Below, piece after piece: positions 1-49,400 of a DNA stretch of 64,000 nucleotides. Origin of the DNA: Spizellomyces punctatus DAOM BR117 (taxonomy: Eukaryota); NCBI GenBank assembly GCA_000182565.2, contig KQ257457.1; one strand, 5' to 3'. The notes beneath the pieces are model-generated. The model was not told the DNA's origin. It saw nothing but the letters and a program-made list of their open reading frames with translations, and made no database searches. The position numbers and the translations under genes were made by a program. Every line of letters begins with the position of its first letter. Position 1 is the first letter of the stretch.

Positions 1-497
1 GGGACTCGCATATAAAACGCTCGTTTCCCATTTTGAAGCACTGTTGGAACTTGGTTTCTGCAGAAAGAGAGGTCCCAGCATTGAAATATCAATTGTGCTC
101 ACTCGTTTTTCTAATGCATGTACACTCCAACCATCAATGAGTGCTATTGCAAAGGCAGCTAAATCCTACACTGTTTATCGCCGGGCACCTTTTATGGCAC
201 ACTGCAACACTAACTTGCAACCATGCAGTTAGTGTAGGAGTGGTACATGGTTGCATGGCGTTTATGTCTGGAGGATTGGGCAATGACCTTTGTTGTCATC
301 ATTTCTGTACAAGTATTCACTTTATCAATATATCAAGGACTTGGCAGCTAAAATAGGAAATCCAACACTTTTCGAGTTCATATCACTTGCAAGGGCGGGT
401 AATATCACACATTTCATTTGAAAGCTTCAACCGCTAATCACCTATATTCAAACATGGAGTTCTCTATAATTGATTTCATCCAATCTTACGATCATCA

Positions 498-586
498 TCT
501 ATGCTGTTTCAATAGTGCGGAGCCGATGGGTATTGGCACTAGCACCCGCACCAGGGATTGAACCGGCGACAACCAGTTCGGAAAAG
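498..586 (-). ncRNA. Fanzor omegaRNA: ~74-nt scaffold (586-513) plus a guide read from flanking DNA (from 512 downward, TTGAAACAGCATAGA...)
   Basis: Lies just 3' of the Fanzor stop and overlaps the right TIR. Minus strand reads CTTTTCCGAACTGGTTGTCGCCGGTTCAATCCCTGGTGCGGGTGCTAGTGCCAATACCCATCGGCTCCGCACTA. Visible stems are GAACUGG/CCGGUUC, GGGU/ACCC and GUGCGG/CCGCAC. It resembles the published SpuFz1 scaffold as I recall it. Ends are approximate. Confidence 0.85.
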
Positions 587-1270
587 GTAATCTAACTAAT
601 CTACGCTACGGCTGGAACACCCCTGCTGAACACTTTTGGTCTACCGTGTCCATCTAACATTGATTGCACGATCATCAGCATGTTGCAGGTGCTCAGCGTG
701 TCCCTGTTCCAGTAGCGCATCGTCCAGGCTTGCTGACAGTTAGGGTTGGTACAACCCAGCAATCCATGGACTTTTTCAATCTTGCCTTCGCGACGGCGCC
801 AAGGTCTTGAATGAGGTCGTGTTTTGAAGCCTTTTTCAAGGAAGTCAGCAGATGAGGCCAAACAGTGAGGGCAGACAGATGAGGTCTTGTACTCGTCGAG
901 AAGGAAGCAGTTGATCCTGTTGCGCTTAAAGAGGGTGCGCCAACCTTTCGTCTTTGATGAGGTCTGAAATCTTGCAGTTCGACCGGCATCACTCCAATCA
1001 CCCATCACAATGGTGAAGTTCCCAAACTTGTTGCGCATGTTGGATATGAGGTTTGATTCACTCTTCTGACGGTTTATAAATGCATGCCACTTCCACTGCG
1101 TGTGGGCAGGGTGGGAGTAGAATTCCTTTCGATGATCTGAATCTGTGCGGCAAACAAGAAGGTAGCAAGTGAAGTCCATGAGGTTCATCGTCTTGTGGCT
1201 TGGGATATGTGATTCTATGAGGTCCATTCCCGCTTCCTTCTTCATCTGCTGCCGTTCCTTTGCAAATCGC

Positions 1271-1322
1271 TGTGACAGTGCATATTTTTATGATTGCAAT
1301 CATAAAAATATGCACTGTCACA
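1271..1322. mobile_element. 52-bp perfect palindromic insertion (TG...CA) with a 5-bp target-site duplication; mini-MITE-like
   Basis: TGTGACAGTGCATATTTTTATGATTG|CAATCATAAAAATATGCACTGTCACA, flanked by ATCGC at 1266-1270 and 1323-1327. Removing it and one ATCGC restores the Fanzor frame. Confidence 0.85.
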
Positions 1323-2301
1323 ATCGCCGGCTACCAGTCTCCTTGCAGCATTGATTGGCGGTATAGCGAAACATTGTTGCACCATTGCTGTCTTGGCAGT
1401 AGAGAAGGTCGTGCTTGTTTGGGTCGATAATGACAATGTTCTCTGCTGCTTGACAAGCAGGCAAGTTGTTTTCCACATAAAGCGCTTTAACCTCTGCCTC
1501 CATCTTGTTTGCTGACTTTTTCCCTCTGCCGCTGTGCTTTCCATACTTGTCAGCTTCAGGATGTTTCAAGTAAACTGACACCGAGGTACTGTCTGTCATG
1601 ATTGAGCCTTCAAACTGCATACCACAGCGAGACTGAAAAGCTTTGGTACATAGATTACAGATGCGCAACCATAAATCGACCTTTTCGACAGTTTCCGCTT
1701 CTCGTCGCGTGATGCAAAGAAGGTGAGAGTAGAGGATGATGGTGTCGATTTGCACGTGACTTTGAATGAGCGAGCGATGAAGAGGTATGGTGCTAAACCG
1801 TCGAAATCCGTGATGCTCATAGAGTCAGGAGAGTTTGCAGTATGCAGGAAAGAAGGCGAGAGGGTCTACAGCAACCGAATATGTGAGTGGCTGGTCGTCA
1901 GAAAGGGGAATGCTAAGGGACCAAATCTCTTCTAGAAGTTCACTCTCTTCAGCAGTCAAGTCATCAAGCGACTCAGGCACAATATCAAAAAGGAAAATTG
2001 ACTTCAAGTAGTGAAGACGAGCAAAGAAAGCGTTTTGCGCATCGCTTTTCAGTGGCAGTCGCTGCTTCTGTCTCTTCACATCAAGCCACAGATTAATGTA
2101 CCGGAGCAGCATCATCATGAAGTGTTCCTGGACATTGACCTTCAGATTCGTCATCATACTCGCTGTCAGATAATTGACTGATTGCTGCTCTTTTTGTACA
2201 TTTGGATGAACGAAGCCGACGATGTTGCAGTACCATTGGATGTATGGCAACAAGGATTCGCATAACGCCTTCTTTGCACCAGTTTTTGGTTGCCATGATT
2301 C

Positions 2302-2873
2302 TGTAACGGATTTTTTGTTGGTAGACTATGGTAAAGACAACTTGGGTCTCCTAGCAGGTTGTGTGGGTGTCCGTACTAGGAATCGTAGTCTCCAAATCCT
2401 TTCTTTGGGCGTCGGTAGCGACTTGAGGGCGAGAGGCAAGGAGAGTCGGTTAGTTGTGAACCGAGCAGGATTTAGAGGCTTCAGTGCAGGTGATCAGGCC
2501 GTTGAAGCGCTCTGTTAGGTTCCTGTTAACCTAGGATTGGGGTTGAGAAGCTAGTTGTGGGGATTTTTTGTCGCTACGGCTTCTGGCCGCCGACTTATTT
2601 TATTGAATTCCTCTTTTTATACAAGAATATGCTACGGTAACGTCTACACTAGTTTCCGTAGCCTTCATTAGGGTGGCGGCGTCCGATCTTCCCATCTCGG
2701 ACCATCGCCATGATCGATCATGGCTGCGTAATGTATCCTTCATGCTGCGCTGGTGTAGCCCAGAACCGAGCTTGATCTTAGGGGTTTCGAAGCTTAGGTT
2801 ACAATTGTGGAAACCTCAATCATGGTCACCTGATGCCTTTGAGTGAACCGGTTTATCAGAGTCGTTCGCTACA
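2302..2873 (-). repeat. 3' LTR
   Basis: Direct repeat of 10555-11126 with about 9 substitutions by manual comparison. The PPT is adjacent. Confidence 0.97.
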
Positions 2874-2884
2874 TCCCCCCTTCG
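2874..2884 (-). other. Polypurine tract
   Basis: Minus strand reads GAAGGGGGGA immediately before the 3' LTR. Confidence 0.85.
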
Positions 2885-2930
2885 AAAAAGAAGGTTCGGC
2901 GACTCATCTGTGAGTGCCCGAACCTCGCTT

Positions 2931-5900
2931 CTACCATGACGCAACTGGATAGTCGTCGTCAGCTTCAAGGCTGTCTTCATTGATCATCCAGATTATGGTA
3001 GCGCGCCCCATGACGTTCGTGCAGAACCAAATTTGGTCAGTGGCTTCCGGAGCCGGGGTTCCAGGTGTCCTGGAACCGTTGGCTCGGGTTACGTAGAGGG
3101 CTGTGAACGTCTCTGCGGCCCTTTTCAAGTTAACCGCTCGAAAGTGGTAATAGGCGTGCTCCCGATGTTTGGGACGGAGCTGCTCTTCTGTGGTTTCAGC
3201 TGCGTTGGCTAGCTTTAACAACACTGCTCTCGCGGCTTCGATGGCTATGTCCGCGAAATCGTGGGCCTCGCGATCGGGCCAGAGGGTGAAGTGGGCCGTT
3301 TTGGGGTTTCCGGCCGCATGTTGAGGGACCCCAGCGTCAAGCCAGGCGGCGCAGGGTACGTCCCGTAATCTCTTCCCGATCTTTTTTGCGTCAGCGACGA
3401 TACCGACAGCTGCTTGACCACCGTCGGAAGCCCTACTGTAGGGCTCCGCGATATGCATCGTGAGGGGCTGGCTCGTGGCGTACGGCTTTGAAGCCCCGTC
3501 AACCACCCAATCTTCACCACGATAGTGTTCGAGGGGTTTGTTTGGGTCTTCGAACAGCTCACGAATCCAAACTTCAACCCAGGTGGCCATAGCTGCTCCG
3601 AGCTGCTCGATAGAGTTCTCGGCAGCGAAGGCGTCGCTTACTTCTGACCAGGGATAGCCTTCCTCAAGGGTAGAGAGGATGCTGACTCCTTGTTGTCCTC
3701 GGATATCGGTGGTCATGGTGTTGGAAACGAAAGCTTTTGTCTCGGTGTTGATAGACAAGGTTTGCGAAGCAGAGTAGGTCTGTAAGGGAGATAGGTCGTA
3801 GGTAGTTGAAGAAGAAAAAAGAGGGGGAGCGTGCAGGGGCGTCCTTTTAAGGTCGTTGCCGGCTGATTTTGACAGCTCGGACGCGCGTAAGCGTGATCGG
3901 GAGGCTTGGTGTGGCGTTCTTGACTGGTGAGGTAAGCCGCGCGAAACTGGTTTTCTTTCTGGTGAGAGGGCGTGATTATCACGTGAGCTATTGTCCGGAT
4001 AAATCGTGAAGCATTGGTGGTCGGAAGCATAAGCCAGGGCGTCACCTGCAAAGCTGACTACCAAGGAGTCCTCTACTAGTGCGCTAGTGGGAGCTCTGGA
4101 TCTCCAGTACTCTTCTAAGGCTTCGGAAGCCTCTGTTAGGGCTTCCTCTGGTTCCCAGGTATCCTCATGGGGTGGGTATCCAGCCCAACGTATTCGAAAT
4201 TGACGCTTTCCGCGCCTGGTTTGATGGTCTACTATTGCTTCCACTTCGAACTCGCCTTTTGAAGCGTCGGAATCCTCCATTTGTGCTTCCGCGATCCTTT
4301 CCTCAGTTTTGGCGTCGACAGGCTTCTGGTACGGACGTAATTTCGATATGTGAAACCATGGGTGAAGTCGTCTCATCTTGTCTGGCAGTTTTAGCTCATA
4401 GTTGTCGCGGAGAGGGTTGCAGTCGGTCACCGTGACTGGTCCCAGCCATTTCGGAGCGATCTTGGACTCATACCCTGCTAGGTTTTTTGTGCTCAGAAGC
4501 ACCTTATCTCCTCTCCGGAACTCCAGATGTCGTCGCAATAAATCGTAATATCTTTTCTGCGAGTCCTGGGCCTCGATCATCAGATCCTGGATAAGGATGT
4601 TTAGGTCTCCAAGATGTTTACAGAGCTCTTCCGCGTCTGCATTTCTGGTTTCTGACGGCCTTTCAACGATGTCCGCCAGTGGATTGTGGGGCTCATAGCC
4701 TAGGTCCATCTTGAACCACGTCATTTTTGTCGCCTCGTGTACCGTATCGTTGATAATGAATTCTGCAACCGGAAGAAAGGTGTCCCAGTCGTCTAATCGG
4801 GTGTTGACCATTGTGGTAAGGACCTGCAAGACCGTTGCGTTGTCTCTCTCTGATTGTCCATCACCTTGAGGGTGGTAGGCTGTGGTGAGCTCTTGATTAA
4901 TCTTTAGGTTTTTGCAGACCTCCTGCCAAAATCGACTTGTAAATTTGGGGTCGCGGTCTGAGATGATAGTTTCCGGGATGCCGTGCAATGGGACGTAGTG
5001 TTCTATAAATAGTTCCGCGACCTGAGTAGCTGTCGCAGTGCTCTTGAAGGGCCATACGTGGATCCTCTTTGAGCATTTACAAGCTATTAGCCAAAAGGCA
5101 TCGTACCCTCTGGAAGTAAGTGGGAGCTTGGTTACGAAGTCAGTTGTGATGACTGTCCAGCGTCCCGGAGCTGGTGGTATGGGTTTCAACAACCCCGGAA
5201 TCAGTTGCAGTACCCTTTTTGAGCGTTGGCAGGTTTCACATCCTGCGCAATGTTTTCTGAAATCTTGTGCCATTTTCGGCCACCAGACTTGTGCTGCAGC
5301 TCTAGCGTAGGTTCTTTCGAATCCGAAGTGTCCTCCCCCCTCGTGAAAAAGCTTGCGCACCTCGGGGGTGCAAGCAGGGGGCACGTAGAGGCGCCAAAGG
5401 TCTTCGGAGACTGAAAAACGGTGCCACAGCAGGTTATCTGCACGTTGCCAGTCCTGAAGAAAGCGCGCGTCGGCTGTAGTGTAGGTGTCGGGGCTGGTCT
5501 CCCATAGGAGCGTGCGGGCCTGTTGGGCTATGGGGTGGAGCTGGCTGGTGAGGCCAGCGCGGATGGCGGCAATGAGTGCAGGCTGTAAGGCCAGACGAAA
5601 GACGGCATCTGCCAGTGTTGAGGAAGGTGCGAGAGCAGCTGGTGTGGTGCGCAGCCGTCGTCTTCCGCGTTTCGACACCCATATTTGGGTCGCGGTGGAG
5701 CAGAGTAGGGTTTCCGCTCCTAGTAGCCGTGAAAGTGTATCAGCGACAATGTGAAAACGTCCTGGTTTGTGAACGATTGTCATCCATTCGGACCAGTAAC
5801 TAAGATCGAGGGCCCAGCGGAGAAGCTTACGGTTCTCGCCTTTGTATTTAGCGAGCCACAAAAGAGCTCGGTGATCAGTAATGACCGTGAAAGGCAGGCC

Positions 5901-8900
5901 TTCGAGGTATGGGCGGAGTTTTCCGAGGCCCCAAATGAGGCATCCGGCCTCGAGTTCGACGGGGGGGGCCTTCTTTTCCGAGGTGGTGGTGCCTCGGGAA
6001 TGGTAGCACAGCGGGTGTTTAGAAGCATCCGGCTGTAACTGTTCGAGCGTGACATTAAATGCTGTGTAGGAAGCGTCACTGTGAAGGGTGTAGGGGAACC
6101 CTTTTCTGGGTGCCGCGAGCACTGGAGCTGTTGTCAGAGCCTGCTTGGCGGCTGCGAAGGCAGAGTTTCGGGAATCGGTCCATGAAACTTCACGCTTCGC
6201 AATAAATCTGCGCAGACCTTGGTCGGGGCGCTTGCGAGCAAGGCGTCCGACACAAAAGGGGTCAATGGGTAAGTCCGCCAGCGATGATTGGCGTAGATTG
6301 ACCACCGGTAGGTCTGAGGAGCTAGATTTCGGATGTTGCGAAACCTCAAATCGGGCTCCGGTGGCTGTGATTGTAGGGGCCACCGCCGTGTCGAGCATGG
6401 ATGGTGAATTGAGCTTTTCAGCGCCTTTCTTCGGGTCAGCGCGACCCTTTTTAAGGTCTCGGTATTTGCGAACGCCCTCTTGGATAGCGTCTTGCAGGGG
6501 TCGGACGAGTTCCGCGTAGCGAGAAATGAATTGGGCGTAGAACCCTAGGAGACCCACAAATGACCATAGGTCACCTATGAATTTGGGTTGTGGCCAATCG
6601 ACTATGGTTGCGACCTTGTCTGGATCGGTAGCGAGACCCTGAGAGGAGGCAACGAAACCGAGGGCCGTGAGCTGGTGAAAGAGCCATTGACACTTGTCAA
6701 GTCTTAGGGTGAGTTTGGCTCTGGAAAAGCAGTCGAGCCAGTCCGCGATGGCGTCTAGGGCTTCCGCGGCTGTCTCCGCTCGTGTGTGGATATCGTCGAC
6801 GAAGTTGTTGATATTTCGCCATTTGGAGGGACCCAAGGTGTCGTCCATCACCCGACAGAAGTGCGAGGGGGCAGTCTTGGGTCCGAAGGGCATAAAGAGT
6901 GGTTCATAGATGCCGTCATGGAGTCTGAGCGCGAGCCATTTGCGTACCGACGCATCGGTGATGGCGATTTGGTAGAATCCTTTGTTTGCGTCACCTCCCG
7001 ATATGTATCGGAATGGGACTGCGATGATCCAGTTCAGGATGTCGAGCATGATGGGAAAGGGATATGGATCCCAGGCCATGCAGTCGTTGGCTCGGCGATA
7101 GTCGAAGGCTACGCGCGGGGGTTTGTCTGCATAGCGAATGATAACAGGATCGCTGGCGAAGGTTACTTCGGTGGTTCGTTTCCACCTCTGAAGCCCCATC
7201 ATGGTGTCTCGCTCCGTCTCGAGGGCTGTGCGCTCCAACGGAGAGTACGACCGTGGCCTCGAAAGGGGTGGCGGAGCCGAGATAAATCGAGGCGCATAAG
7301 GAATCTTGGTGTAGTTCCCTATGAGATGACCCTCATAGCTGAAGGCTTGATGGAAGTGTCGTAGAATGTTGATTAGGGCCCAGACCACAGGTTTGGGTCG
7401 CTTGAGATCGACGTGGAAATGTTCCGCGTCTTTTAATTGGGCTTCGAAGGCCCCTGGAGCCCTCTCCGTAGAGTCGAGGTTCCATTTGTTCCAAAGTGTC
7501 TGCCATTCTTCTTTGGAAATGTTCTCTTCGGGGTCCGCAACCGAATTATGGGTCGCGGTGGACAGTTTGAGGCCTAACGGGACTGTTGAGCTAGCAGCGG
7601 TGGCCTCAAGAGGGTTTTCGATGAGAAAAGTTTGGGCTGCCACGCACGTCTGTCCCGTGATTAACATGGTTAATCTAGACTTCTGAGCTTTGGCTTTGGT
7701 CAGCCGTGGCATTGACACATCCTTCATGAATTCACCCTGCTTGGTTTTGTATGGCGTGCCGCGCATGTGATCGGTGTCCAGCTCATCCGTTATGGAGCAA
7801 GGGATAAGGATGTCCGGATTCTTGAGCGTCACCGCGAAACTGGGTAACGGGGGTTCCTGAACCAAGGTTTGGAGTTTCAAATGTCCCAGAACATCGTTGG
7901 CTAGGATGATGAGAGGTTTCCCATATGCAATGACTCGGAAATAGGCGCGGAAAGTCAGGTATTCTCCTCCGCGGCCTCTGAGGGAAGTTTCGAGGCATAC
8001 TGTCTTGGTAGATGAGATACGTCCACCAATGCCTTTGAAAGCCATCGTTTCCGCATCCTGCAAATCGGTTTCGGAGAACAGAAGGCCCTGGTACGTGTCG
8101 GAAACCAGAGACTCGCAGGCTCCTGTGTCTAGTACCACAGGTGCCCAGAGCTGAGCGATGACGGCTAGCGTCCAGCAAGGCTGCGTTTGGGTCTTGGTCT
8201 GGCTTTTGAGTACATCGCCTAAATCTACCGAGTAGAAGGCGTTGATGGAAGGCACCACGACCTCGAAATGGGGCACGATGTCATTAATTGTTGCTTCCGT
8301 AGCCTTGATCGCACTCTCAAAGTGCTCTCTAGATTTGTCGTTTTGTGGTTTTGTTGTTTTATTCTGGCGAGCAACTTGTTCGATAGCCAGCATGACTATA
8401 TGCGTCCGTTCGCTCTCTTCGTGTCTTTGGAGATGTGGATGGTCTTTAACGTGCAGAAATTTGGGGTTTCCGCGACGATAATAATAGTCTGAGCGAACGA
8501 TATTGCCTGTCAGGAGAAATGCCACCAGTTGCAGGTTGGCGTAAGAATCAAAGATAACAGGATCTTCGGAGCTCCACATCAAGAATTTCTCACGCTCGTC
8601 GAGCCTTATCCAGGCAAGGAGGATCAAACGAGGGGTACCATCTTCTCGGACTTTTCGCAGGATTCGATCCTTGTCAGCTTTGGCTGCGGCAGCGATGTAG
8701 AGGTGGTGGGAACTCCACGCAACTGCGTAGGGGTCGTTCCCGAGGTGCCCGGCGCCTCGCTTCGGTTCTTTGGCGAAGAAGCTGAGCGCGCGGGGGTTGT
8801 TGCCCATCATCAGAGCCACTTGCGGGGTGCCCCAGATGATGGCTATGTTGTCCCAGACTTGGTCCCAGCCCTGCGTGGGCGTGCGGGGGTCCTCTTCCTT

Positions 8901-10400
8901 GGTCACCGTGACCTTGGAAAGAGGTGCGGTCATCAAAATTGTTGATTCCGAGTGCTCGGGTGAATGAAAGAATCCGATGGTGTGGAATCCTTGATTAGCG
9001 GTGGCTGTCCTTTCCAGTTCCGAAGCCGAAAAAAGAGTCTCGGTGGTAGCGGACGTCGAGTCCAGCTCCACTATGTACGACTTCTTGGACTCCTGTTTGG
9101 GTTTCCAACCTGCGGGCATGGGTGCTCCGTATGGTCCCTTCTTTCCATCTTCAGGATCTTTTCGGTTCAGGTTCTGCCAGCAGAAAACATTCCAATGCTT
9201 TTTCTGACAGAATTTGCAGGGTGCCGGTGGTTCCGTGTTGGGGTCCGGAACCATCTTCTGAGGGCCGTCGTGACCCTTTTCGGGGTTTCCGGTTTTATGT
9301 TGAGCCGTCTGCTTAGGGCCTTTGTCGATTCCGGTCTTTTGTGACTTCTTCTGAGCTTCAGCAGCACCGCTGTAGCAAGGGTCTCGTTTTCTGGTGTCAT
9401 CAGAGCCGAAATAAAGGCGCAGGAAGTCTTTTAATTTGGTCAGGTTCATGACGTTACAGGATTTGACCATGATTTGGATGTCGCTGGGCAATTGTTCGAC
9501 TATTAGGTCGAAATGCTGGTCAGCGGGACATTCTATGTTTGCCCGGTCGCCGTATGCGAGGCGCCGGAGATGAGTTTTGTGGTCAATGAATGCGAGAAAG
9601 CTGCGAAATTCTTTGGGGTTCGCGTGGCAGCGCACATATTCGGTTTTGCGCTTGGACTCGGTTAGGGGATCTCGGAACTCTCGAAGCAGTTCTTCTTTCC
9701 ACCTTTTCCAGGTCCACGAGCGAGTTTCCTGGGCTTCCAGAGTGTAAAACCAAGCGTCGGCAGGGGTTTTCTCGGCTATCATGGCTGGTAGGAGCTGTAC
9801 CATCCTGGCATCCAATGTTGCGCTAACGTTTTGAAGAAGTTGGACTTTGTTGAGCCATTCTTCAACGTCTTGGTTTCTTTTGCCCGTAAACTCGGGTACG
9901 TCCTTTGCTTTCAAGGAATCGACCTTGGTGTCGCTGGCCCACGGGGCTGCTGGCACTTGGATTGGAGGCACCGGACCTGAAAAACTTGGTTCGGTACGCT
10001 CCCTTGGTGTGTCCGACGTTTCCCACGGGGTTGCGGACCGTTCTCTTGTAGCTCGTGCTATGAGAGGTTGTTCAGGCAGCGGGCGATGCACTAGGGCTTC
10101 TAAGGCTCGTGCGAGGCGCTCATCCACCGCTGTCTGACGTTCGGAAAGCCTATGAAGCTGTTCCGTAAGGTTTTGAGTTGCCAACTGCGTTGCAGCAGTC
10201 GAGCGGGCAATGTCTTCTTTTAACGCTGCCACTTCAGAGGCCATCGTGGCCAAGTTAGGGGCTTCCGGTTCGACGGAAGTGGTCCCTGAACGCCTTGGGC
10301 GTGTTGCGGGAGGGACTTCGACGTCCTCCGCAGGACCCTGACTACGAGTCTGGATCACAGGTGAGCGGCCTCGCGTTGGAGAGCGTTCGACCGGCATCAT
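2931..10400 (-). CDS. Gag-Pol polyprotein (Gag, Zn knuckle, protease, RT, RNase H, integrase, chromodomain, plus unassigned regions)
   Basis: Uninterrupted ORF (open from 10478; first ATG 10400). Motifs: CKFCQKKHWNVFC knuckle; VLDTGA protease; DANKGFYQ / MPFGPKTAP / FVDD RT; SDAS RNase H; HHCC, TDF, SDRDPKF and YHPQGDGQSE integrase; FEVEAIVDHQ...FRIRWAGY...DTWEPEEAL chromodomain. Confidence 0.96.
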   Translation of the reverse strand: MMPVERSPTRGRSPVIQTRSQGPAEDVEVPPATRPRRSGTTSVEPEAPNLATMASEVAALKEDIARSTAATQLATQNLTEQLHRLSERQTAVDERLARALEALVHRPLPEQPLIARATRERSATPWETSDTPRERTEPSFSGPVPPIQVPAAPWASDTKVDSLKAKDVPEFTGKRNQDVEEWLNKVQLLQNVSATLDARMVQLLPAMIAEKTPADAWFYTLEAQETRSWTWKRWKEELLREFRDPLTESKRKTEYVRCHANPKEFRSFLAFIDHKTHLRRLAYGDRANIECPADQHFDLIVEQLPSDIQIMVKSCNVMNLTKLKDFLRLYFGSDDTRKRDPCYSGAAEAQKKSQKTGIDKGPKQTAQHKTGNPEKGHDGPQKMVPDPNTEPPAPCKFCQKKHWNVFCWQNLNRKDPEDGKKGPYGAPMPAGWKPKQESKKSYIVELDSTSATTETLFSASELERTATANQGFHTIGFFHSPEHSESTILMTAPLSKVTVTKEEDPRTPTQGWDQVWDNIAIIWGTPQVALMMGNNPRALSFFAKEPKRGAGHLGNDPYAVAWSSHHLYIAAAAKADKDRILRKVREDGTPRLILLAWIRLDEREKFLMWSSEDPVIFDSYANLQLVAFLLTGNIVRSDYYYRRGNPKFLHVKDHPHLQRHEESERTHIVMLAIEQVARQNKTTKPQNDKSREHFESAIKATEATINDIVPHFEVVVPSINAFYSVDLGDVLKSQTKTQTQPCWTLAVIAQLWAPVVLDTGACESLVSDTYQGLLFSETDLQDAETMAFKGIGGRISSTKTVCLETSLRGRGGEYLTFRAYFRVIAYGKPLIILANDVLGHLKLQTLVQEPPLPSFAVTLKNPDILIPCSITDELDTDHMRGTPYKTKQGEFMKDVSMPRLTKAKAQKSRLTMLITGQTCVAAQTFLIENPLEATAASSTVPLGLKLSTATHNSVADPEENISKEEWQTLWNKWNLDSTERAPGAFEAQLKDAEHFHVDLKRPKPVVWALINILRHFHQAFSYEGHLIGNYTKIPYAPRFISAPPPLSRPRSYSPLERTALETERDTMMGLQRWKRTTEVTFASDPVIIRYADKPPRVAFDYRRANDCMAWDPYPFPIMLDILNWIIAVPFRYISGGDANKGFYQIAITDASVRKWLALRLHDGIYEPLFMPFGPKTAPSHFCRVMDDTLGPSKWRNINNFVDDIHTRAETAAEALDAIADWLDCFSRAKLTLRLDKCQWLFHQLTALGFVASSQGLATDPDKVATIVDWPQPKFIGDLWSFVGLLGFYAQFISRYAELVRPLQDAIQEGVRKYRDLKKGRADPKKGAEKLNSPSMLDTAVAPTITATGARFEVSQHPKSSSSDLPVVNLRQSSLADLPIDPFCVGRLARKRPDQGLRRFIAKREVSWTDSRNSAFAAAKQALTTAPVLAAPRKGFPYTLHSDASYTAFNVTLEQLQPDASKHPLCYHSRGTTTSEKKAPPVELEAGCLIWGLGKLRPYLEGLPFTVITDHRALLWLAKYKGENRKLLRWALDLSYWSEWMTIVHKPGRFHIVADTLSRLLGAETLLCSTATQIWVSKRGRRRLRTTPAALAPSSTLADAVFRLALQPALIAAIRAGLTSQLHPIAQQARTLLWETSPDTYTTADARFLQDWQRADNLLWHRFSVSEDLWRLYVPPACTPEVRKLFHEGGGHFGFERTYARAAAQVWWPKMAQDFRKHCAGCETCQRSKRVLQLIPGLLKPIPPAPGRWTVITTDFVTKLPLTSRGYDAFWLIACKCSKRIHVWPFKSTATATQVAELFIEHYVPLHGIPETIISDRDPKFTSRFWQEVCKNLKINQELTTAYHPQGDGQSERDNATVLQVLTTMVNTRLDDWDTFLPVAEFIINDTVHEATKMTWFKMDLGYEPHNPLADIVERPSETRNADAEELCKHLGDLNILIQDLMIEAQDSQKRYYDLLRRHLEFRRGDKVLLSTKNLAGYESKIAPKWLGPVTVTDCNPLRDNYELKLPDKMRRLHPWFHISKLRPYQKPVDAKTEERIAEAQMEDSDASKGEFEVEAIVDHQTRRGKRQFRIRWAGYPPHEDTWEPEEALTEASEALEEYWRSRAPTSALVEDSLVVSFAGDALAYASDHQCFTIYPDNSSRDNHALSPERKPVSRGLPHQSRTPHQASRSRLRASELSKSAGNDLKRTPLHAPPLFSSSTTYDLSPLQTYSASQTLSINTETKAFVSNTMTTDIRGQQGVSILSTLEEGYPWSEVSDAFAAENSIEQLGAAMATWVEVWIRELFEDPNKPLEHYRGEDWVVDGASKPYATSQPLTMHIAEPYSRASDGGQAAVGIVADAKKIGKRLRDVPCAAWLDAGVPQHAAGNPKTAHFTLWPDREAHDFADIAIEAARAVLLKLANAAETTEEQLRPKHREHAYYHFRAVNLKRAAETFTALYVTRANGSRTPGTPAPEATDQIWFCTNVMGRATIIWMINEDSLEADDDYPVASW

Positions 10401-10543
10401 TCTCGGTTTCGTGAAGTCTGTTTCCGAAACGAGAGAAAAGGTTTCCGAGTAGCTACCTGAGCGGATCTCGGTTTGCACAAGAGTTTCGGTACAACTGAAT
10501 AAGGTTTTCAGCTGAATTTGAGAGGGGAAGGCAGTTCGTCGCG

Positions 10544-10554
10544 CTTCTCCACCA
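10544..10554 (-). other. Primer-binding site, probably tRNA-Ala
   Basis: TGGTGGAGAAG follows the 5' LTR directly. It is complementary to a ...CUUCUCCACCA tRNA 3' end, typical of tRNA-Ala. Confidence 0.7.
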
Positions 10555-11126
10555 TGTAACGGATTTTTTGTTGGTAGACTACGGTAAAGACAACTTGGGT
10601 CTCCTAGCAGGTTGTGTGGGTGTCCGTACTAGGAATCGTAGTCTCCAAATCCTTTCTTTGGGCGTCGGTAGCGACTTGAGGGCGAGAGGCAAGGAGAGTC
10701 GGTTAGTTGTGAACCGAGCAGGATTTAGAGGCTTCAGTGCGGGTGATCAGGCCATTGAAGTGCTCTGTTAGGTTCCTGTTAACCTAGGATTGGGGTTGAG
10801 AAGCTAGTTGTGGGGATTTTTTGTCGCTACGGCTTCTGGCCGCTGACTTATTTTATTGAATTCCTCTTTTTATACAAGAATATGCTACGGTAACGTCTAC
10901 ACTAGTTTCCGTAGCCTTCATTAGGGTGGCGGCGTCTGATCTTCCCATCTCGGACCATCGCCATGATCGATCATGGCTGCGTAACGTATCCTTCATGCTG
11001 CGCTGGTGTAGCCCAGAACCGAGCTTGATCTTAGGGGTTTCGAAGCTTAGGTTACAATTGTGGAAACCTCAATCGTGGTCACCTGATGCCTTTGAGCGAA
11101 CCGGTTTATCAGAGTCGTTCGCTACA
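10555..11126 (-). repeat. 5' LTR
   Basis: TGTAAC...GCTACA, a copy of 2302-2873. The PBS is adjacent. Confidence 0.97.
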
Positions 11127-11548
11127 ATTCACCTTTGTTGAGAAGATAGAGGATGGCTTCAATTGTCTCTTGATTTACTGTGGGAAAAACTGGCACTGAT
11201 GATGAAAGGAGATAGAATTTCAGCGCGTGGGAAGCGTGGTCGGCGAGTTGATGGATGATGGCGATGTAATCTAGAAGCCGTTGGCGATAGTTTGGCAGGA
11301 AAGCTTTTGCAAAGGAAGTCTTGTTGCAGGTATGTAAGGTGGGTTTGTCGAGTTTTTCAAGCTTTTGCTTCTTTTTTGGTGGCATTGATGATATCTGTGG
11401 GAAAAGATGAAAGCCTGGGAAAATGGGCGACGACAACTTATATAGGATTTTTTGGATCAAACCATAGTTCATGAGTCTAAATCGAGTAAAATTATGATTA
11501 AATTGGTTGGAATCTATGTACTAGTGCCAATACCAATCGGCTCCGCAC

Positions 11549-11552
11549 TATG
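11549..11552 (-). other. Target-adjacent motif (TAM) 5'-CATA at the Fanzor left end
   Basis: Plus-strand TATG abuts the left TIR. CATA is the reported SpuFz1 TAM, and its TA is the duplicated dinucleotide. Confidence 0.85.
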
Positions 11553-12233: not shown

Positions 12234-15200
12234 ATGTCGTCAGACAATAGTCCGACAGATCTTGCAGGAGTCGTAACTGCTGCCGGTTTGCAGACGGCGA
12301 TCTCAATCGGTAGGAACAGGACGGTACATTTGAGGCTCCGTCGCCCGGTAATGCTTATAGCTTCTTTGTTTATGTTCAAGGGCTTTTTATCGGCTTTTCT
12401 TTATTACGGCCGCGAAATAAAATTGTATACGAACCTCGATCAAAGTTTGCTCCGGAGCAGTATGTGATTGTCGCAAAGGATCTTAGTATAAAAGTGATCT
12501 TAACTGCCTTATTGACCAACAGGAAACGACCACAGCCGCTCAGCGGTATTCCGACAGCATGGCTGCGCCCGACGCTCTTTACCAATGAAAACCAACTTGT
12601 CGACAAGATCGGCCTAGATGCCGTCATGTTCCTCCGCTTCATTCGTCTTTGCTTTCAATTCTTCCTAGGTCTCACATGCATTGGAATCCCACTTTGTATC
12701 TTCCACTTTTATGCGCCGAGATTCACCGGAGGATCGAACCGCGACAGCGTAAACAGTCCTGATAAACAAACCGATCAAAAGTCGCCCCAACTGGCCGCGT
12801 TAACTATCAACAATGTATATCATGAGTCTTCGTGGTTTTGGATGCATGCTGTATTGGTCTGGGTGTTTAGCATGTATGCATACTGTAAGTTTCCGATTAT
12901 GGTGATAATCTGCAATATTACGAGTGCTGCGACTCAGCCGTTTACCATATTGCAGATCTAATGTACAGACTCTGGATGGATTGGATACGATTTCGTAGAG
13001 AGTTCTTTTTCAGCTCAGAATTTCAAAGTGCATTTCATAATCGCACGCTAATTCTGACAAACCTCCCGGACTCGATGCGCTCACCTCAAGACGTAACCGA
13101 GTTCATGACATCATTGAACTTGAAGGACTCGATTCGCCAGGCCGTAATCGGACGGGAAGTTGGAGATTTACCAAAGCTCATTGAAGAGCACCAAAAAGTC
13201 ACTGCAAAATTGGAGGATGTATTGGCAATCTGTAAGTTCTTGGATGACGATTTAATGTCTTGTCTAGATACTGATAAATTTCATGGTTCAGACTTGAAAG
13301 ACCCGTACCGAGTTCCGACCAAGCGTCCTACCCATAAAATCAACAAGAAATTGCTGATATTTGGAGGACAGAAGGTTGACAGTATTGAATACTGTAGCGG
13401 GAGACTACATGCGCTGGAGCGCGAAATCTACGAACTGCGCTCGAAAGGCGATCATCACTTCAAGCCAAACGCCAATGCATTTGTTTCTTTTCGCAGTGTC
13501 CAGGCTGCTCACTCTGCTGCGATTAAATTGAATGGTGTAGCTGCTGTGGCTCTTCGAAGCCGATCACTTTCACCGCCATCTGTGAAGCTCAGTCCAGATT
13601 TCGACGATATTATTTGGCAGAATGTTGGGATTAGCGCTGCCATTCGGCATACTCGCAGACTGATGGCACTTGGAATTGTCATTGCGGTTACGTTATCTTG
13701 GTCTTTTTTGATCATCTTCATCACCGGGCTGGTGAGTTTGGGCACCATTGAAAAGTACGTCCCAAAGCTAGCGGAATGGATTGAAGAGCGGAAAGCTGCA
13801 ACAGTCATCCTGACATCCATCATTGCGCCGGTTTTGTTCTCGGTATTGCAAATCCTTCCACCGATCGGATTCCGGTTCTTGGCGCGCTTCCAAGGCGTGT
13901 TGTCCAGCAGTGGCGTAGAGAAGAGCGTAATGCACAAAGTCTTTGCATTCCAAGTCTATCAGTACGCCGCTATCCTTCTAATCAATCTGAGTGCAACAAC
14001 GATCGGCTCGATTCTGAACTTTTCGAACGGGGATGTCGGAGCGTCGACACGATCTATTTTCAACAGTATCGCCGTCGCATTCATTGACGTGAGTTATGTG
14101 CGAAATCGTGAAATATTCAGGTCACATATGTAACCTTAATTTTCGCTCTCTTGCCAGAAATCTTCCTTCTTCATTGCGATGATTGTGACTGGAATGACGA
14201 GCATCGCGATTGAACTGATTCAAGGCGTTCCCTTGGTATTGGGTTTCATTAAGCGACATCTGTTCGCGAACACGCCCCGTAAAGAGTTTGACTACAACCA
14301 AGCCCCCGCATTACCGTATGGGCCGATCTACGCGCTCATTCTCATCAAATTCCTCTTGGGCGTGTGCTACTCTGTTGCCGCCCCATTGATACTGCCATTC
14401 ACGTCTGCATTCTTCTTTGCGGCGTATCTGGTGTACAAGTATCAGCTTATCTACGTCTACGAGACGCCTTTGGAAACGGGGGGAACGTGGTGGCCAAAAG
14501 TGTTCACACTATTATGCATATGTATCGGCTCGTTCCAGCTCATGACCCTCGGAGCAATATTGTTAATTGCTACTGGGGTGAGCGCTGAAGGGAATGGGAA
14601 ACGACAAGCCATCATGCTTGTGGTCCTCATGTGCCTGAATGTGGTATATTGGTGGGCGTGTCGGAGATGGTTGGCGCCTCAAGGCTTCATGTCCAAATCG
14701 GATTTGGAACTCGTGGAATCAGCAGGCAAATGGAATGACAACGAAGAGTTGGAAGATCGTGTATACAACCCTGCGTTGGTGAAACCGTTGTGGAGAGTAT
14801 GGGTATGGAAGCAGGCTCGAGAGGTGCAGGACAAATATTATACGCCAGAGTATCAGGATATTGAAGATTTCATTCGGAAAACACGTCCAGTATCAGTTGG
14901 TGGACGTGGAGAGGTTGGAAGCACGGACGATTTCACAGAAGTAGCAGGCACAATCCGTCGTAACGCAAAACGGGTACTATCGTTTTATCACCGCCATCCG
15001 CTACATAGCACGAGCCCCAATGCTGAGGCACCGCCAGAATTGGAGCACGTTGCACAGGAGGCAGGAGAAAGTCTCCCTATTGTTGTCGCTGTCCCGGATG
15101 ACGAGCAAGATCCAAACATCACGGCAGGAAGCGGTCTTCCAACGTACTCTTCTTCTGCCACGCTACATTCGCTAGAACGCCCTTATGAACTTCAAGACTA

Positions 15201-34210: not shown

Positions 34211-35856
34211 CAGGGTCCTCCTTCCGTAAATCTTTCAACATTCAGACATTCCTCAAGGATCATTATCGACCCGATCTTCATCTAATCGACCTTCTTAAGT
34301 GGACTGTGGCCTATGCTAAGGATCACAGGCATGTTTTGCTTTTACCAAACCCATCTACCTATTCCTCAGGGTGAACCATCCTAAGGTGCATTATATGCTT
34401 TACCGATGTATTGAGATCCTCCTTAAGGTAGATTGACCCCATGTGCCCGACTAGGTATTGCATGCATCAAACGCACAGAGAAAGAGGTGGGTATACCTTA
34501 TGTCAGATAATAGGCCACCTGGCACACCCTGATAACCACGTCAAATCTCCAGCCCTCTGGGGGAGATTGTATGGGATGATTCTGTGGCTCGCCGCGGGGT
34601 CACAGCACCGCTCCACCTCACACGGCCGGTCGATGCCCTGAGGTTCTTCAGTACCAAAGTACCGTGACCTCCGAGGGGATCAATAGACCGTGGAACACTT
34701 CCAGGGCTTGCCTTATAAATTAGTATTAGCATGGAATTATCTACTTTTAGGGTCACTACACTTTCACCAATGTCGGGTCTCGATGGCGCTTCGGGGCATA
34801 ACGCAGACAGGCGGCCACCTTTTATCCCATACTCTCCATTTCATACTCCTCACTCCCCATTGCGTGACCCGTGGCTCCCTTTACCCCGTACATGTACTTT
34901 ACCCGGCACAATATTTGTTATTCTAGTCGAAAGATATGGGTCACTGCATGTCTAATTGACGTGAGGAATCTGATGAAAGGAACTGATAAGAGAGTTAAAC
35001 AGCACGCGAAATTGCTAAAAGGGAAACCCTTGGGACCAGCATTGCTTGGAGGTAATCATCCGCACGAGCCTGAAAAGATTAGTGATGGATGGGCCTCCAT
35101 AACCAATGGCCACCCAGAACCTGAATAATTCCACATGAGCTCACAAGTTGACGATATCCGTAACGTATATTTTAAAAAGTAGAGTTGGTGTGGGGCTCTT
35201 ACCCGCATCCTTTCATCAATCCCAGAATTGAATCGGGGACCTCAAAGAAAAGAATATTTTTCGAGATTAGAAGTCGAGCCTCTCCCTGCACCCAGACAGA
35301 GCGTCCCCACTGGAACTCACTCAACTGAAGAAAAGAATAGTGAATAGAGGACTCTTTGAGATTTGAACTCGGGACCCGTGCGTTTCCACACACCAAGTGC
35401 ACTGCTGTGAATGCGTTGCCGATAATTGCAAAAATAAGAGGGATTTGCCTGTATTCACATAGGAACCATTGCGTTTCTACTTTCCACTCCACCACTATAG
35501 CTCAATGGGCACCCTGGTATGTCGGTTACAGTGCATTACCTCAATTAAGGGCGCACAGTCACTGCACACATTTTTCCAGTCACGCTAAACCCGTGGTTCC
35601 CTCTCAGTTGCAGTGAGCCAAAAATGGGTGACTATTGGTTAACGGTGGTCGAGTGGTAGGACCATACTCACAGCCGTAACCGCGTTACGGCAGTGGGACA
35701 TGGTCCTACGCGCGTTACCCAATGGCTTGTGGCTTACGATGAGTGCCTCGAAGGATCACCGAGATTTGAACTCGGGACCCGTGCATTTCTACCACCAAAT
35801 GCACTGCTGGTGAACGCCGATCGTTGAAAAAAAAAAATTAACCGAGAAGAATCTAG

Positions 35857-35928
35857 AGGACTCACCGAGATTTGAACTCGGGACCTATCGATCTGCAGTC
35901 GATTGCTCTACCACTGAGCTATAAGTCC
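35857..35928 (-). tRNA. tRNA-Cys(GCA)
   Basis: GGACTTATAGCTCAGTGGTAGAGCAATCGACTGCAGATCGATAGGTCCCGAGTTCAAATCTCGGTGAGTCCT. Full cloverleaf, U73 discriminator and a T-run downstream. Confidence 0.93.
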
Positions 35929-36120
35929 CCGTGTTATCACTTCCCATTTCACATTGCTCTACCACTGAGTTACAAGTCCATGCTTACCACTGAGCTATAA
36001 GTCCTCATGTTATCACTTCCCATTTCACATTGCTCTACCACTGAGCTACAAGTCCATGCTTACCACTGAGCTATAAGTCCCCGTGTTATCACTTCCCATT
36101 TCACATTGCTCTACCACTGA
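35903..36120. repeat. 76-bp tandem repeat built from tRNA-Cys 5' halves plus upstream flank
   Basis: TTGCTCTACCACTGA recurs at ~35903, 35954, 36030 and 36106, with extra TACCACTGAGCTATAAGTCC copies between. Confidence 0.9.
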
Positions 36121-36311
36121 TCACTATGACAGTGCACCGGGACCAATAGCCTATCGGTCCCGGTGCACTGTCATAATTTTCCACAGGACTTAAAGGTCCT
36201 GCGCATGCCATGATAACTTGCTCCATATTCAGACTATATATCAGGCCCGTTGCACTGTCATCATTCTCCATATACTAAAAGTCATGAGCATAGATGTGAT
36301 GATGATTAAAA

Positions 36312-36554
36312 CTCTGACAACCGCTCCAGTGCTTGCGGCGCCTAGAAAAGGGTTTCCTTAGGGTTGTTAAAACTGCTTGGAGGTATCGGGATGAATGGGT
36401 AAGCTCTTTTGTTTTCTTCATTTTTTTATGACAAAACTTTGAATGTGGGTATATGCGTGCTGGTTTTTATTAATGTTTTTTTGTGTTTTGGCTTTTTTGT
36501 AGGACTGGGCATTTATTGGTCTACACCCTTCCCAGCGACGCATCATACACAGCG
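36312..36554 (+). pseudogene. Split gypsy RT-RNase H fragment related to the chromovirus
   Basis: 36312-36360 encodes LTTAPVLAAPRKGFP and 36522-36554 encodes YTLPSDASYTA. This matches Pol LTTAPVLAAPRKGFPYTLHSDASYTA at ~6061-6140. About 160 bp intervene. Confidence 0.75.
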
Positions 36555-36851
36555 CATTTTACCTGTACAGATCACACTAGTATAGATCTACAAGCCATGA
36601 TTAAAACTGACCCATCGGTCCTGCGCGTGCCGTCGTAACTTGCACATATTCCGACTATAAAGTCCTAGTTCTTCGGGACGAGCACATCAATTGCTCGACC
36701 GCTGTCCGATCTCACTGCGGATCAATTTTGTACCAAAGGACGTAGCGCATGACATTACTCGCTTCAAGATTCGTACTTACTCCATATTCAGACTATAAAG
36801 TCCTAGTTCTTGGGGACGAGGGGCTCTACCGCTGTCCGATCTCACTGCGGA

Positions 36852-37154
36852 TCAATGTTGTAGCAACAGACGCAGCCCATAAGGTGCAAGCACAATTCGT
36901 GCCCCGCGACGGGCATACTCATAAGTAAGTTCTTCTCCAATCCCAGAGGAAGCGCCAGTGATGAGCAAGACCTTGTTTTCTAGTGGCCATGGGCGTGCCT
37001 TTAGCCGTCGTTGGACTTTGCAGGCGAGATTGAGCGCGAATAACACGGGTGCAACGGTGACGGTGATGAGATTGTAAATGTTTTCCATGATGCGGGTGAA
37101 AAACGAAGCAACGAGGGGAAAAGAGGAGATGGCCTTCAAATGGTGGTAGATCAT
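36852..37154 (-). pseudogene. Truncated short-chain dehydrogenase/reductase N-terminus
   Basis: KVLLITGASSGIGEELTYEYARRGARIVL Rossmann motif, which then runs into repeats. No YxxxK segment was found. Confidence 0.7.
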
Positions 37155-37699
37155 CTGCCGACAACATTGCTCGCTTCAAGATTCACTCGTAAGTCTGTTA
37201 ACCTCCCCGGATAGATTGACGCTTTGTATTGAAATTCCCGTAGAGATAAAGTGTACCGTTTTTCGCAATCATCTCACTTGCAGATCATTTGCTCTGCCAT
37301 GTAGCTCCTGGTGTACTGTCATATCTTTGGACTGTCATATCACGCCTATATGATGTATACCACTCCTACACCGTTCATCACCGGGCTACCCCAATATGTA
37401 CGTTCTAATGCATTCACTCAATGTTTAATGAGCGCAATCACTGCCCACATCCCACCAGAGCGTGGTGGAGAAGCTGCCGTGGTCGAGATCTCTTTGCCGC
37501 TTAAACATGGGCTGATCATTGAGGTTGAAGATACTTTCTCGATACTGGAAAGTTCTGAGACCTCGGAAAACCACTCCTTATCAAGTAGCGTCAGTTTTGA
37601 ACGTCACGCTGCCACTCCTGAGGTCATTTTAATGACATGGTTGCCATCTCAGTTGCAGTATGCCATAAAAGGGTGCCTGGCGCTTAACAGTGTAGGTGT

Positions 37700-49161: not shown

Positions 49162-49400
49162 NNNNNNNNNNNNNNNNNNNNNNNNNNNNNNNNNNNNNNN
49201 NNNNNNNNNNNNNNNNNNNNNNNNNNNNNNNNNNNNNNNNNNNNNNNNNNNNNNNNNNNNNNNNNNNNNNNNNNNNNNNNNNNNNNNNNNNNNNNNNNNN
49301 NNNNNNNNNNNNNNNNNNNNNNNNNNNNNNNNNNNNNNNNNNNNNNNNNNNNNNNNNNNNNNNNNNNNNNNNNNNNNNNNNNNNNNNNNNNNNNNNNNNN
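49162..49400. other. Assembly gap (N run)
   Basis: Run of n characters. Confidence 1.

What the first reader, a model, noticed from the sequence alone, without database searches (positions are those of the whole stretch)
498..11552. Complete eukaryotic RNA-guided nuclease locus (Fanzor + omegaRNA + TAM) hidden by nested insertions
The ORF track shows only scattered fragments up to 9 kb apart. Removing the LTR element and the 52-bp hairpin, each with one TSD copy, gives a ~2148-bp TIR element with one 633-codon frame. All three RuvC acidic residues and the Zn ribbon are retained (seen). The reconstructed empty site on the minus strand is ...TTA-CATA-TTGAAACAGCATAGATG. The TAM therefore sits directly 5' of the sequence that becomes the guide, the geometry by which TnpB/Fanzor recut the vacated allele (established for TnpB; inferred here). 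Fanzors are described (SpuFz1), so the novelty is this copy and its history rather than the family.
Basis: partly seen in the sequence, partly recalled or inferred. Interest (0 to 1): 0.92.

Follow-up and report, generated by a model that had tools for sequence, protein, structure and literature searches.

The report
Broken copy of known Fanzor transposon
This is a dead, insertion-riddled copy of the already well-studied Spu-1/SpuFz1 Fanzor element of the soil chytrid Spizellomyces punctatus, so the reconstruction is correct but the find is ordinary.

Summary
On the minus strand, 11552-497 holds one Spu-1-type Fanzor1 element. Its 632-codon frame is cut by three lesions: an 8,825-bp Ty3/Gypsy LTR retrotransposon (2302-11126, TSD GAAT), a 52-bp perfect palindrome (1271-1322, TSD GCGAT) and an in-frame TGA (1825-1827).

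The four coding pieces map collinearly onto SpuFz1 (PDB 8GKH) with one- or two-residue gaps at the breaks. Overall identity is 81.7% to the 638-aa paralogue and 89% to the nearest one. Contigs from paralogous copies skip exactly the 57 bp and run straight across the LTR site.

The catalytic D383/E541/D606, N385, the Zn-ribbon cysteines, the 30-nt inverted repeats, a two-stem omegaRNA scaffold and CA+TA (= CATA) at the left end are all present.

All of this is in print: Bao & Jurka 2013 for SPu-1, and Saito et al. 2023 for 42 Fz loci, 11 with Ty3 or other inserts, the CA motif and the CATA TAM.

New here is only detail. The copy carries a strong CpG-deamination signature: 14 conserved arginines are lost, including R387 and R407, which contact nucleic acid in the published structure, and the TGA derives from CGA. 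Reverting the TGA alone would therefore probably not restore activity. Interest is low.

The parts
11549..11552 (-). CA (11552-11551) plus TA (11550-11549) at the left end. Together they read CATA, the published SpuFz1 TAM.
   Evidence: Sequence read. The conserved CA upstream of the 5' IR and the CATA TAM are from PMC10432273.
11518..11550 (-). Left-end inverted repeat (TA + GTGCGGAGCC...).
11128..11385 (-). Fanzor coding piece 1: ATG at 11385-11383, 86 aa, begins MPPKKKQK.
   Evidence: Maps to 8GKH chain P 396-485, E 5e-42.
2302..11126 (-). Nested Ty3/Gypsy (chromodomain) LTR retrotransposon. LTRs at 10555-11126 and 2302-2873. Open gag-pol frame at 2934-10628. 4-bp TSD GAAT at 11127-11130 and 2298-2301.
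   Evidence: Paralogue contigs lack it (loose end behind 2301).
1828..2295 (-). Fanzor coding piece 2 (156 aa, REC region with TAM contacts).
   Evidence: Maps to 8GKH chain P 487-644, E 3e-69.
1825..1827 (-). In-frame TGA. Aligns to G251 of SpuFz1 and to R in the nearest paralogue. Paralogue contigs read CGA here.
   Evidence: (place 1827 A>G).
1324..1824 (-). Fanzor coding piece 3 (167 aa; WED/RuvC-I with D383 and N385).
   Evidence: Maps to 8GKH chain P 646-809, E 1e-84.
1271..1322 (.). 52-bp perfect palindrome insertion with TG..CA ends. 5-bp TSD GCGAT at 1323-1327 and 1266-1270. It brings an in-frame TGA at 1318-1320.
   Evidence: A paralogue contig skips exactly 57 bp.
604..1263 (-). Fanzor coding piece 4 (220 aa; RuvC-II E541, Zn ribbon, RuvC-III D606). 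Stop TAG at 601-603.
   Evidence: Maps to 8GKH chain P 812-1032, E 4e-126.
512..586 (-). omegaRNA scaffold, about 75 nt with ends good to 1-2 nt. Stem-loop 1 is followed by stem 2 with an 8-nt loop. It overlaps the right-end inverted repeat (513-545).
   Evidence: Fold. U5, C6, C7 and G20 of the published numbering fall on matching letters if nt 1 = 586 (PMC10432273). Paralogue contigs stop matching before 512.
497..511 (-). Flank that would be transcribed as the 14-15-nt guide (TGAAACAGCATAGAT, or one base longer starting at 512).
   Evidence: Guide length from PMC10432273. Unique in the window.

Best explanation
The region is one copy of the Spu-1 non-autonomous DNA transposon of Spizellomyces punctatus. 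[quoted passage not shown]

This copy is a pseudogene. A Ty3/Gypsy LTR retrotransposon landed in codon 87, a 52-bp foldback element landed in codon 412, and a CGA-to-TGA change made a stop at codon 244.

The copy also carries many CpG-to-TpG/CpA changes. These fit cytosine methylation of a silenced transposon followed by deamination (inferred).

The inverted repeats, the omegaRNA scaffold, the flank-derived guide and the CA+TA at the left end are still there. In the family as published, the omegaRNA guide is read from the right flank and the nuclease needs CATA 5' of the target. An uninterrupted site (CATA + right flank) would therefore be the cognate target. That this serves homing or retention, as shown for TnpB, is inference and is not shown for any Fanzor.
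For: Protein mapping: the four coding pieces map collinearly to PDB 8GKH chain P (MBP-SpuFz1) at 396-485, 487-644, 646-809 and 812-1032, with E-values from 5e-42 to 4e-126.

Relatives: 29 longer proteins were found, and those with names are mostly S. punctatus DAOM BR117 proteins. Identity of the read-through (X at each break) is 81.7% (510 of 624) to the 638-aa P0006 and 89.2% (437 of 490) to P0002.

Key residues: all 13 residues named in the paper match P0006 numbering. The window copy keeps D383, N385, E541, D606, Q129, Q130, N133, R291, Y345, R414 and W570, plus the Zn-ribbon C548, C551, C586 and C591.

Insert anatomy.

Paralogue contigs: one skips exactly 57 bp, two cross the LTR site without the insert, and three stop matching before place 512.

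omegaRNA: the fold gives two stems and an 8-nt loop in stem 2, as described for the canonical omegaRNA (PMC10432273, passages).

Published frame: SPu-1 is about 2,100 bp with 33-bp TIRs, putative TA TSDs and a 633-aa protein (PMC3627910). The genome holds 42 Fz loci, 11 of them with Gypsy/Ty3 or other genes inside the IRs, a conserved CA upstream of the 5' IR, a CATA TAM, and a 75-nt scaffold plus 14-15-nt guide (PMC10432273).

CpG signature: 9 of 9 LTR differences lie at CpG, and 19 of 23 private residue changes fit one CpG transition. 5mC is confined to transposons in Spizellomyces (PMC12695648, passage).
Against: No whole genome was held, so I could not align all copies' ends myself. Support for the right boundary rests on 3 contigs of 2 runs, among rows the tool chose to show; 380 loose-end rows were not shown.

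The local Pfam library gave no family for the pieces. It also gave none for two intact paralogues, so this result is uninformative.

Expression of this locus's own omegaRNA was not shown. The very deep RNA signal at 523-609 comes from reads that fit only about 549-594 and then run on unlike, so they come from related loci.

The organism name comes from the names of the homologous proteins and the PDB title, not from a record of the window.
Confidence: 0.93

Rival explanations
1. The nuclease gene is dead, but the locus still works as a guide donor. Its omegaRNA (scaffold 586-512 plus own guide) is transcribed and loaded in trans onto SpuFz1 protein from intact paralogues, as the protein-less 'ghost' Spu-1 loci are proposed to do.
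For: The scaffold folds as the canonical one. The only well-supported difference from paralogue contigs inside 512-600 is place 575, which turns a C:G pair of stem 1 into U.G. Ghost omegaRNAs from four loci supported editing with SpuFz1 in human cells (PMC10432273, passage).
Against: No read assignable to this locus's guide was shown. Depth in bin 436-522 is only 20.8 / 9.3 and includes inverted-repeat letters. The promoter of the omegaRNA is unknown. If it depends on read-through from the Fz gene, the 8.8-kb insert and likely methylation would interfere (inference).
Confidence: 0.3
2. The copy is a recently broken but otherwise sound nuclease. Taking out the two inserts and reverting the TGA would give an active CATA-dependent enzyme.
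For: The catalytic residues, Zn ribbon and 5 of 6 named TAM contacts are kept. The LTRs are only 1.6% apart.
Against: 23 residues differ where 7 paralogues are invariant. 14 of them are lost arginines, among them R387 (contacts omegaRNA C7) and R407 (contacts the target strand). R96 (contacts TAM C) is K, although P0005 also has K (contacts from PMC10432273). Other paralogues show 0-2 such arginine losses.
Confidence: 0.25
3. The nested structure is an assembly chimera and not a real locus.
For: No listed contig bridges 2301/2302 with 31 letters on both sides (table 8; 541 pieces not shown).
Against: Both inserts have clean target-site duplications, and their removal restores the frame exactly. 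A contig of run X1 covers 1293-1481, across the palindrome's edge, with 0 differences. Another covers 1-512 with 0 differences.
Confidence: 0.02

Closest known systems
Spu-1 / SpuFz1 (Fanzor1) of Spizellomyces punctatus DAOM BR117 (Bao & Jurka 2013, PMC3627910; Saito et al. 2023, PMC10432273; PDB 8GKH)
   Same: About 2.1-kb element with 30-33-nt inverted repeats, TA at both ends, CA upstream of the left end, and a single ~633-638-aa frame. [quoted passage not shown] Protein identity is 82-89%, and the catalytic and Zn residues are kept.
   Different: The frame is broken three times. 14 family-invariant arginines are lost. There is one wobble change in omegaRNA stem 1.
Fz loci with Gypsy/Ty3 inserted in the Fz gene (Saito et al. 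2023: 11 loci with further genes inside the IRs)
   Same: The same kind of locus: Ty3/Gypsy inside the Fz frame, between the IRs.
   Different: Whether this very locus is one of the 11 could not be checked, because Extended Data Fig. 3 and Supplementary Data 1-2 were not available to me.
Ghost Spu-1 elements (Saito et al. 2023)
   Same: An omegaRNA-bearing right end without a working nuclease gene.
   Different: Ghost loci hold a ~550-nt core, 7 differences in the IR, and a stem 2 with a 3-nt bulge. This copy has the canonical IR and the 8-nt loop.
ISDra2 TnpB / IS200-IS605 OMEGA system
   Same: RuvC + Zn-ribbon nuclease. The guide is read from the right flank, and the TAM sits next to the left end, so the uninterrupted site is the cognate target.
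   Different: Spu-1 has inverted repeats and a putative TA duplication, no TnpA and no known transposase. Its omegaRNA has no pseudoknot (PMC10432273, Discussion). The homing or retention role has not been shown for Fanzor.

Membership tests
Fanzor1, SpuFz1 subfamily | Full-length collinear homology to SpuFz1 | tested here: met
   The pieces map to 8GKH chain P at 396-485, 487-644, 646-809 and 812-1032. Identity to P0006 is 81.7%.
Fanzor1, SpuFz1 subfamily | RuvC catalytic D383, E541 and D606, plus N385 | tested here: met
   All four are present in the window copy (residue names from PMC10432273).
Fanzor1, SpuFz1 subfamily | Zn ribbon cysteines (CxxC ... CxxxxC) | tested here: met
   C548, C551, C586 and C591 are kept.
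Fanzor1, SpuFz1 subfamily | Uninterrupted reading frame / expressed protein | tested here: not met
   The LTR element, the palindrome with its in-frame TGA, and the TGA at 1825-1827 all break the frame.
Spu-1 transposon | 30-33-nt terminal inverted repeats with TA ends and CA upstream of the left end | tested here: met
   The family description comes from PMC3627910 and PMC10432273.
Spu-1 transposon | omegaRNA scaffold (~75 nt, two stems, 8-nt loop in stem 2) ending at the right end, followed by a 14-15-nt flank-derived guide | tested here: met
   Fold. Paralogue contigs match up to place 512. No Rfam family exists for it.
Spu-1 transposon | omegaRNA of this locus is transcribed and bound by the protein | tested here: inconclusive
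   RNA reads at 523-609 come from related loci. None could be assigned to this guide.
OMEGA/TnpB-type RNA-guided nuclease (works like) | TAM-dependent, guide-dependent DNA cleavage | not testable with these tools
   Shown for SpuFz1 by Saito et al. 2023, not for this copy.
Pfam family listed for the paralogues (PF26935.1, name not seen in any call) | Profile match | tested here: inconclusive
   The local Pfam copy returns nothing for the pieces and nothing for intact P0001 and P0006. The precomputed label is carried by 29 of 29 hits.

The most novel reading that the evidence does not exclude
Although its nuclease gene is destroyed, this locus may still make an omegaRNA with its own flank-derived guide. 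Intact SpuFz1 paralogues could then use that guide in trans to cut the matching uninterrupted site (CATA + TGAAACAGC...). A 'dead' copy would then remain protected or able to home, like the ghost loci. Separately, the copy and its Ty3 guest show an almost pure CpG-deamination mutation spectrum. That would make this a clean natural record of 5mC-driven transposon decay in a chytrid.
Probability: 0.25. Interest if true: 0.35.

Novelty: already known. Interest (0 to 1): 0.15.

Why it matters
It matters little for discovery. Spu-1/SpuFz1 is the founding and best-studied Fanzor, and interrupted copies in this genome are in print.

There are two modest uses:
- A fully worked example of a Fanzor locus with base-exact nested insertions. 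It shows that the guide/TAM geometry survives the death of the nuclease gene.
- The observation that the decay of this copy and of its Ty3 guest is almost wholly CpG transitions. This fits the reported restriction of 5mC to transposons in Spizellomyces, and it warns that 'revert the stop' repairs of such copies will not give a wild-type-like enzyme.

Tried and rejected
- **Own-genome search:** Copy-wide end alignments were therefore not possible.
- **Pfam:** nothing for the four pieces at E up to 0.1, apart from a chance-level PhoU_div hit. It also found nothing for two intact paralogues, so this says nothing about membership.
- **Rfam (1-2400, E up to 1):** only sub-threshold miRNA-precursor hits on the palindrome (27 bits against gathering scores of 49-117), which I take as a generic hairpin effect. 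There is no omegaRNA family.
- **Other copies in the window:** no other Spu-1 end, Fz fragment or copy of this LTR was found.
- **Other targets of the guide:** searching the 16-nt guide with up to 4 mismatches found only itself plus two 4-mismatch sites without CATA.
- **tRNA-like look of the scaffold:** I considered that GGTTCAATCC might mean a tRNA-derived element. ARAGORN finds no tRNA there, and the T-arm pairing fails by eye.
- **Empty allele in other strains:** not tested. Only 1-2600 was laid, to keep both LTR copies out of one stretch, so a joint from 512 to 11552 could not be seen.
- **RNA strand of the 523-609 peak:** it could not be settled. Its first mates lie on the minus strand, while those of the LTR and ORF reads lie on the plus strand.
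- **Not run:** no structure prediction, complex prediction or representative-library search was run. The solved structure of an 82%-identical paralogue made them unnecessary.
Full report
**What is there**

Everything below reads on the minus strand. The stop-to-stop ORF list shows four fragments of one frame (11122-11520, 1825-2325, 1318-1824, 601-1287), separated by a 2,565-aa open frame at 2931-10628.

Repeat finding gives three structures:
- A 34-nt inverted repeat at 512-545 and 11518-11551, 94% complementary.
- A 52-bp perfect palindrome at 1271-1322.
- Two 572-bp direct repeats at 2302-2873 and 10555-11126, with 9 mismatches.

The 28-nt core of the inverted repeat occurs only at these two places in the window, against 0 expected in 100 shuffles.

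**The insertions, base by base**

The LTR element starts TGTAGC at 11126 and ends GTTACA at 2302. It is flanked by GAAT at 11130-11127 and 2301-2298. Its frame carries RVT_1, RT_RNaseH, Integrase_H2C2, rve, an SH3 domain and a chromodomain. It is therefore a Ty3/Gypsy chromovirus-type retrotransposon with an open gag-pol.

The palindrome starts TG and ends CA. It is flanked by GCGAT at 1327-1323 and 1270-1266. The 57 added bases keep the frame length but bring an in-frame TGA at 1320-1318.

Taking out each insert with one duplication copy joins the fragments in frame:
- ...NKGE-(split codon)-WQPK... at the LTR site.
- ...GSRR-(split codon)-AKERQQ... at the palindrome.

The third lesion is TGA at 1827-1825.

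The result is 86 + 1 + 156 + 1 + 167 + 1 + 220 = 632 codons plus the stop TAG at 603-601. The distance from inverted repeat to inverted repeat is 2,148 bp.

**Independent check from other copies**

I laid four coded public runs on window 1-2600 at 80% likeness.
- One contig of X7 skips exactly 57 bases (1264->1322, with 6 letters fitting either side).
- Two contigs of X7 that match up to 2301 continue with 30 letters, of which 29 equal window 11131-11160. Uninterrupted relatives therefore read straight across the LTR site with a single GAAT.
- A contig of X1 matches 1293-1481 with 0 differences and another matches 1-512 with 0 differences. The palindrome and the right junction are therefore present in reads of what looks like the same strain.

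The tool guesses X7 to be DNA. Its depth profile (thousands at the omegaRNA, zero in the flank at 175-435) looks to me more like cDNA. Either way it shows the uninterrupted sequence. No listed piece bridges the LTR/Fanzor junction itself.

**What the protein is**

The four pieces hit PDB 8GKH chain P (MBP fused to S. punctatus Fanzor) at 396-485, 487-644, 646-809 and 812-1032. E-values are 5e-42, 3e-69, 1e-84 and 4e-126. The order is collinear, with gaps of one or two residues exactly at the three breaks. Parasitella PpFz1 (9CF0) is the only other structure hit.

A search for longer relatives returned 29 proteins. The named ones are mostly 'uncharacterized protein SPPG_…' of S. punctatus DAOM BR117.

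With X at each break, the read-through has these identities:
- 81.7% (510 of 624) to the 638-aa P0006.
- 89.2% (437 of 490) to P0002, the nearest.
- 71-85% to the other 13 proteins aligned.

I aligned 15 of the 29 hits: P0001-P0012, P0017, P0019 and P0025. I left out the more distant or non-Spizellomyces rows.

P0006 carries the right letter at all 13 positions that the Nature paper names, so its numbering can be used. The window copy keeps:
- D383, N385, E541 and D606.
- The Zn-ribbon C548, C551, C586 and C591.
- TAM contacts Q129, Q130, N133 and R291, and the unwinding Y345.
- omegaRNA contacts R414 and W570.

It has K for R96, as does P0005, and H for R387, as does P0017.

The local Pfam copy finds nothing in the pieces. 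It also finds nothing in the intact P0001 and P0006.

**Ends, omegaRNA and TAM**

The left end reads TTA-CA-TA-GTGCGGAGCC. The right end reads GGCTCCGCAC-TA-T-TGAAACAGCATAGAT.

The 89 bases between the stop and place 512 fold into a short stem-loop followed by a long stem with an 8-nt loop (z = -1.66, unremarkable on energy alone). This matches the published description of the canonical SpuFz1 omegaRNA: two stems and a linker, with an 8-nt hairpin loop in stem 2 where ghost loci have a 3-nt bulge.

If nt 1 is placed at 586, the published U5, C6, C7 and G20 fall on T, C, C and G. Nt 75 then falls at 512.

In one search, three contigs (two of X7, one of X13) stop matching just before 512. This also puts the conserved end at 512. 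The evidence is thin, because these are rows chosen by the tool and 380 loose-end rows were not shown.

The guide is therefore 511-497, or 512-498 if the TA is a true duplication and the T at 512 is flank. In both readings the RNA is collinear with the flank, and the uninterrupted site would carry CATA directly 5' of the guide match. The guide occurs nowhere else in the window.

**What is already in print**

Bao & Jurka 2013 (PMC3627910, passages read): SPu-1 is about 2,100 bp, with 33-bp TIRs, putative TA duplications, a 633-aa protein and 17 full-length copies.

Saito et al. 2023 (PMC10432273; I read the omegaRNA section, the Discussion and further passages):
- 42 loci with full-length (19) or partial Fz genes, and 134 ghost loci.
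- About 82% identity among the proteins.
- 30-nt IRs with a conserved CA upstream of the 5' IR.
- A 75-nt scaffold plus a 14-15-nt guide, and a 5'-CATA TAM in which every base is needed.
- No transposase found, and the biological role called unknown.

Yoon et al. (bioRxiv 10.1101/2023.08.09.552727, passages): in insect Fanzor1 elements the TIR and the fixed duplication are part of the scaffold.

The family, the host, the architecture, the TAM and even this class of interrupted locus are thus described. I could not see the extended-data figure or the supplementary tables that may list this very locus.

**What I can add: the decay pattern**

At 348 alignment columns where 7 S. punctatus paralogues are invariant, the window copy differs at 23.
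- 14 of these are Arg to Cys, Gln, His or Trp.
- From the codons, 19 of 23 fit a single CpG-to-TpG/CpA change.
- The same leave-one-out count for the seven paralogues gives 0-2 such arginine losses among 4-16 private changes.

The lost arginines include R387 and R407, which the structure paper lists as contacting omegaRNA C7 and the target strand.

Paralogue contigs read G where the window has A at place 1827, so the stop is CGA turned to TGA. They also read G at place 575, a CpG in omegaRNA stem 1 turned to TpG, which leaves a U.G wobble.

All 9 differences between the two LTRs are also at CpG. CpG observed/expected is 0.75 in the right Fz part, against 0.92 for the window and 0.96 for the young LTR element.

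A 2025 paper reports that 5mC is confined to transposons in Spizellomyces (PMC12695648, passage). Methylation followed by deamination is thus the likely history, but this is inferred.

In practice, reverting the TGA and removing the inserts would give a protein lacking 14 family-invariant arginines. It would not give a typical SpuFz1.

**RNA**

In run X22 (raw RNA reads), depth at 523-609 is 7,260 for first mates on the minus strand. However, 19,349 of 19,650 laid reads fit only partly, and 15,695 are 90-95% alike. They break off at 549 and at 585-594 into other letters.

They therefore come from related loci that share only the 5' half of the scaffold. These may be ghost loci, but that is my guess.

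Their first-mate strand is opposite to that of the LTR and ORF reads, which I cannot explain.

Nothing shows that this locus's own omegaRNA is made.

**Surroundings**

The element sits about 760 bp upstream of an OSCA/CSC1-type channel gene (RSN1_TM, PHM7_cyt, RSN1_7TM).

**Verdict**

This is a pseudogenised member of a published family in its type organism, already known as a kind, so interest is low.

Noticed in passing
window 1271-1322 and 36125-36175 (also 36239-36261, 37306-37323): The 52-bp palindrome inside the Fanzor gene shares its terminal letters (T-TGACAGTGCA) with a second ~51-bp near-perfect palindrome at 36125-36175, and with two solo ends nearby. The inner halves are unrelated. 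This may be a family of tiny foldback elements built from single transposon ends. The first has a 5-bp duplication; I saw none at the second.
   Followed up: partly
window 2302-2873 vs 10555-11126: All 9 of 9 differences between the two LTRs of the Ty3/Gypsy element are CpG versus TpG/CpA. The gag-pol frame of 2,565 aa is still open. This looks like a young, probably methylated retrotransposon.
   Followed up: partly
window 523-609: In RNA run X22 there is a very deep pile (about 7,260x, first mates on the minus strand) of reads that match only ~549-594 and then diverge. Their first-mate strand is opposite to that of reads on the LTR and the Fz frame. They probably come from related omegaRNA-like loci. 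The strand question is open.
   Followed up: partly
window 35300-38000: This is a repeat-rich stretch. It holds a tRNA-Cys gene at 35856-35928, three 76-bp tandem units with tRNA-like letters at 35909-36136, further 54-104-bp repeats at 37700-38000, and short matches to the inside of the Ty3 element at 36312-36354 and 36521-36553.
   Followed up: no
window 12314-14133 (+): An OSCA/CSC1-type membrane channel gene (RSN1_TM, PHM7_cyt, RSN1_7TM) lies in at least two exon-like frames just beyond the element's left end.
   Followed up: partly
window 23634, 42520, 44287; 49162-49400, 52127-52226: Three tRNA-Met(CAT) genes lie within 21 kb. There are two runs of N, of 239 and 100 bases.
   Followed up: no
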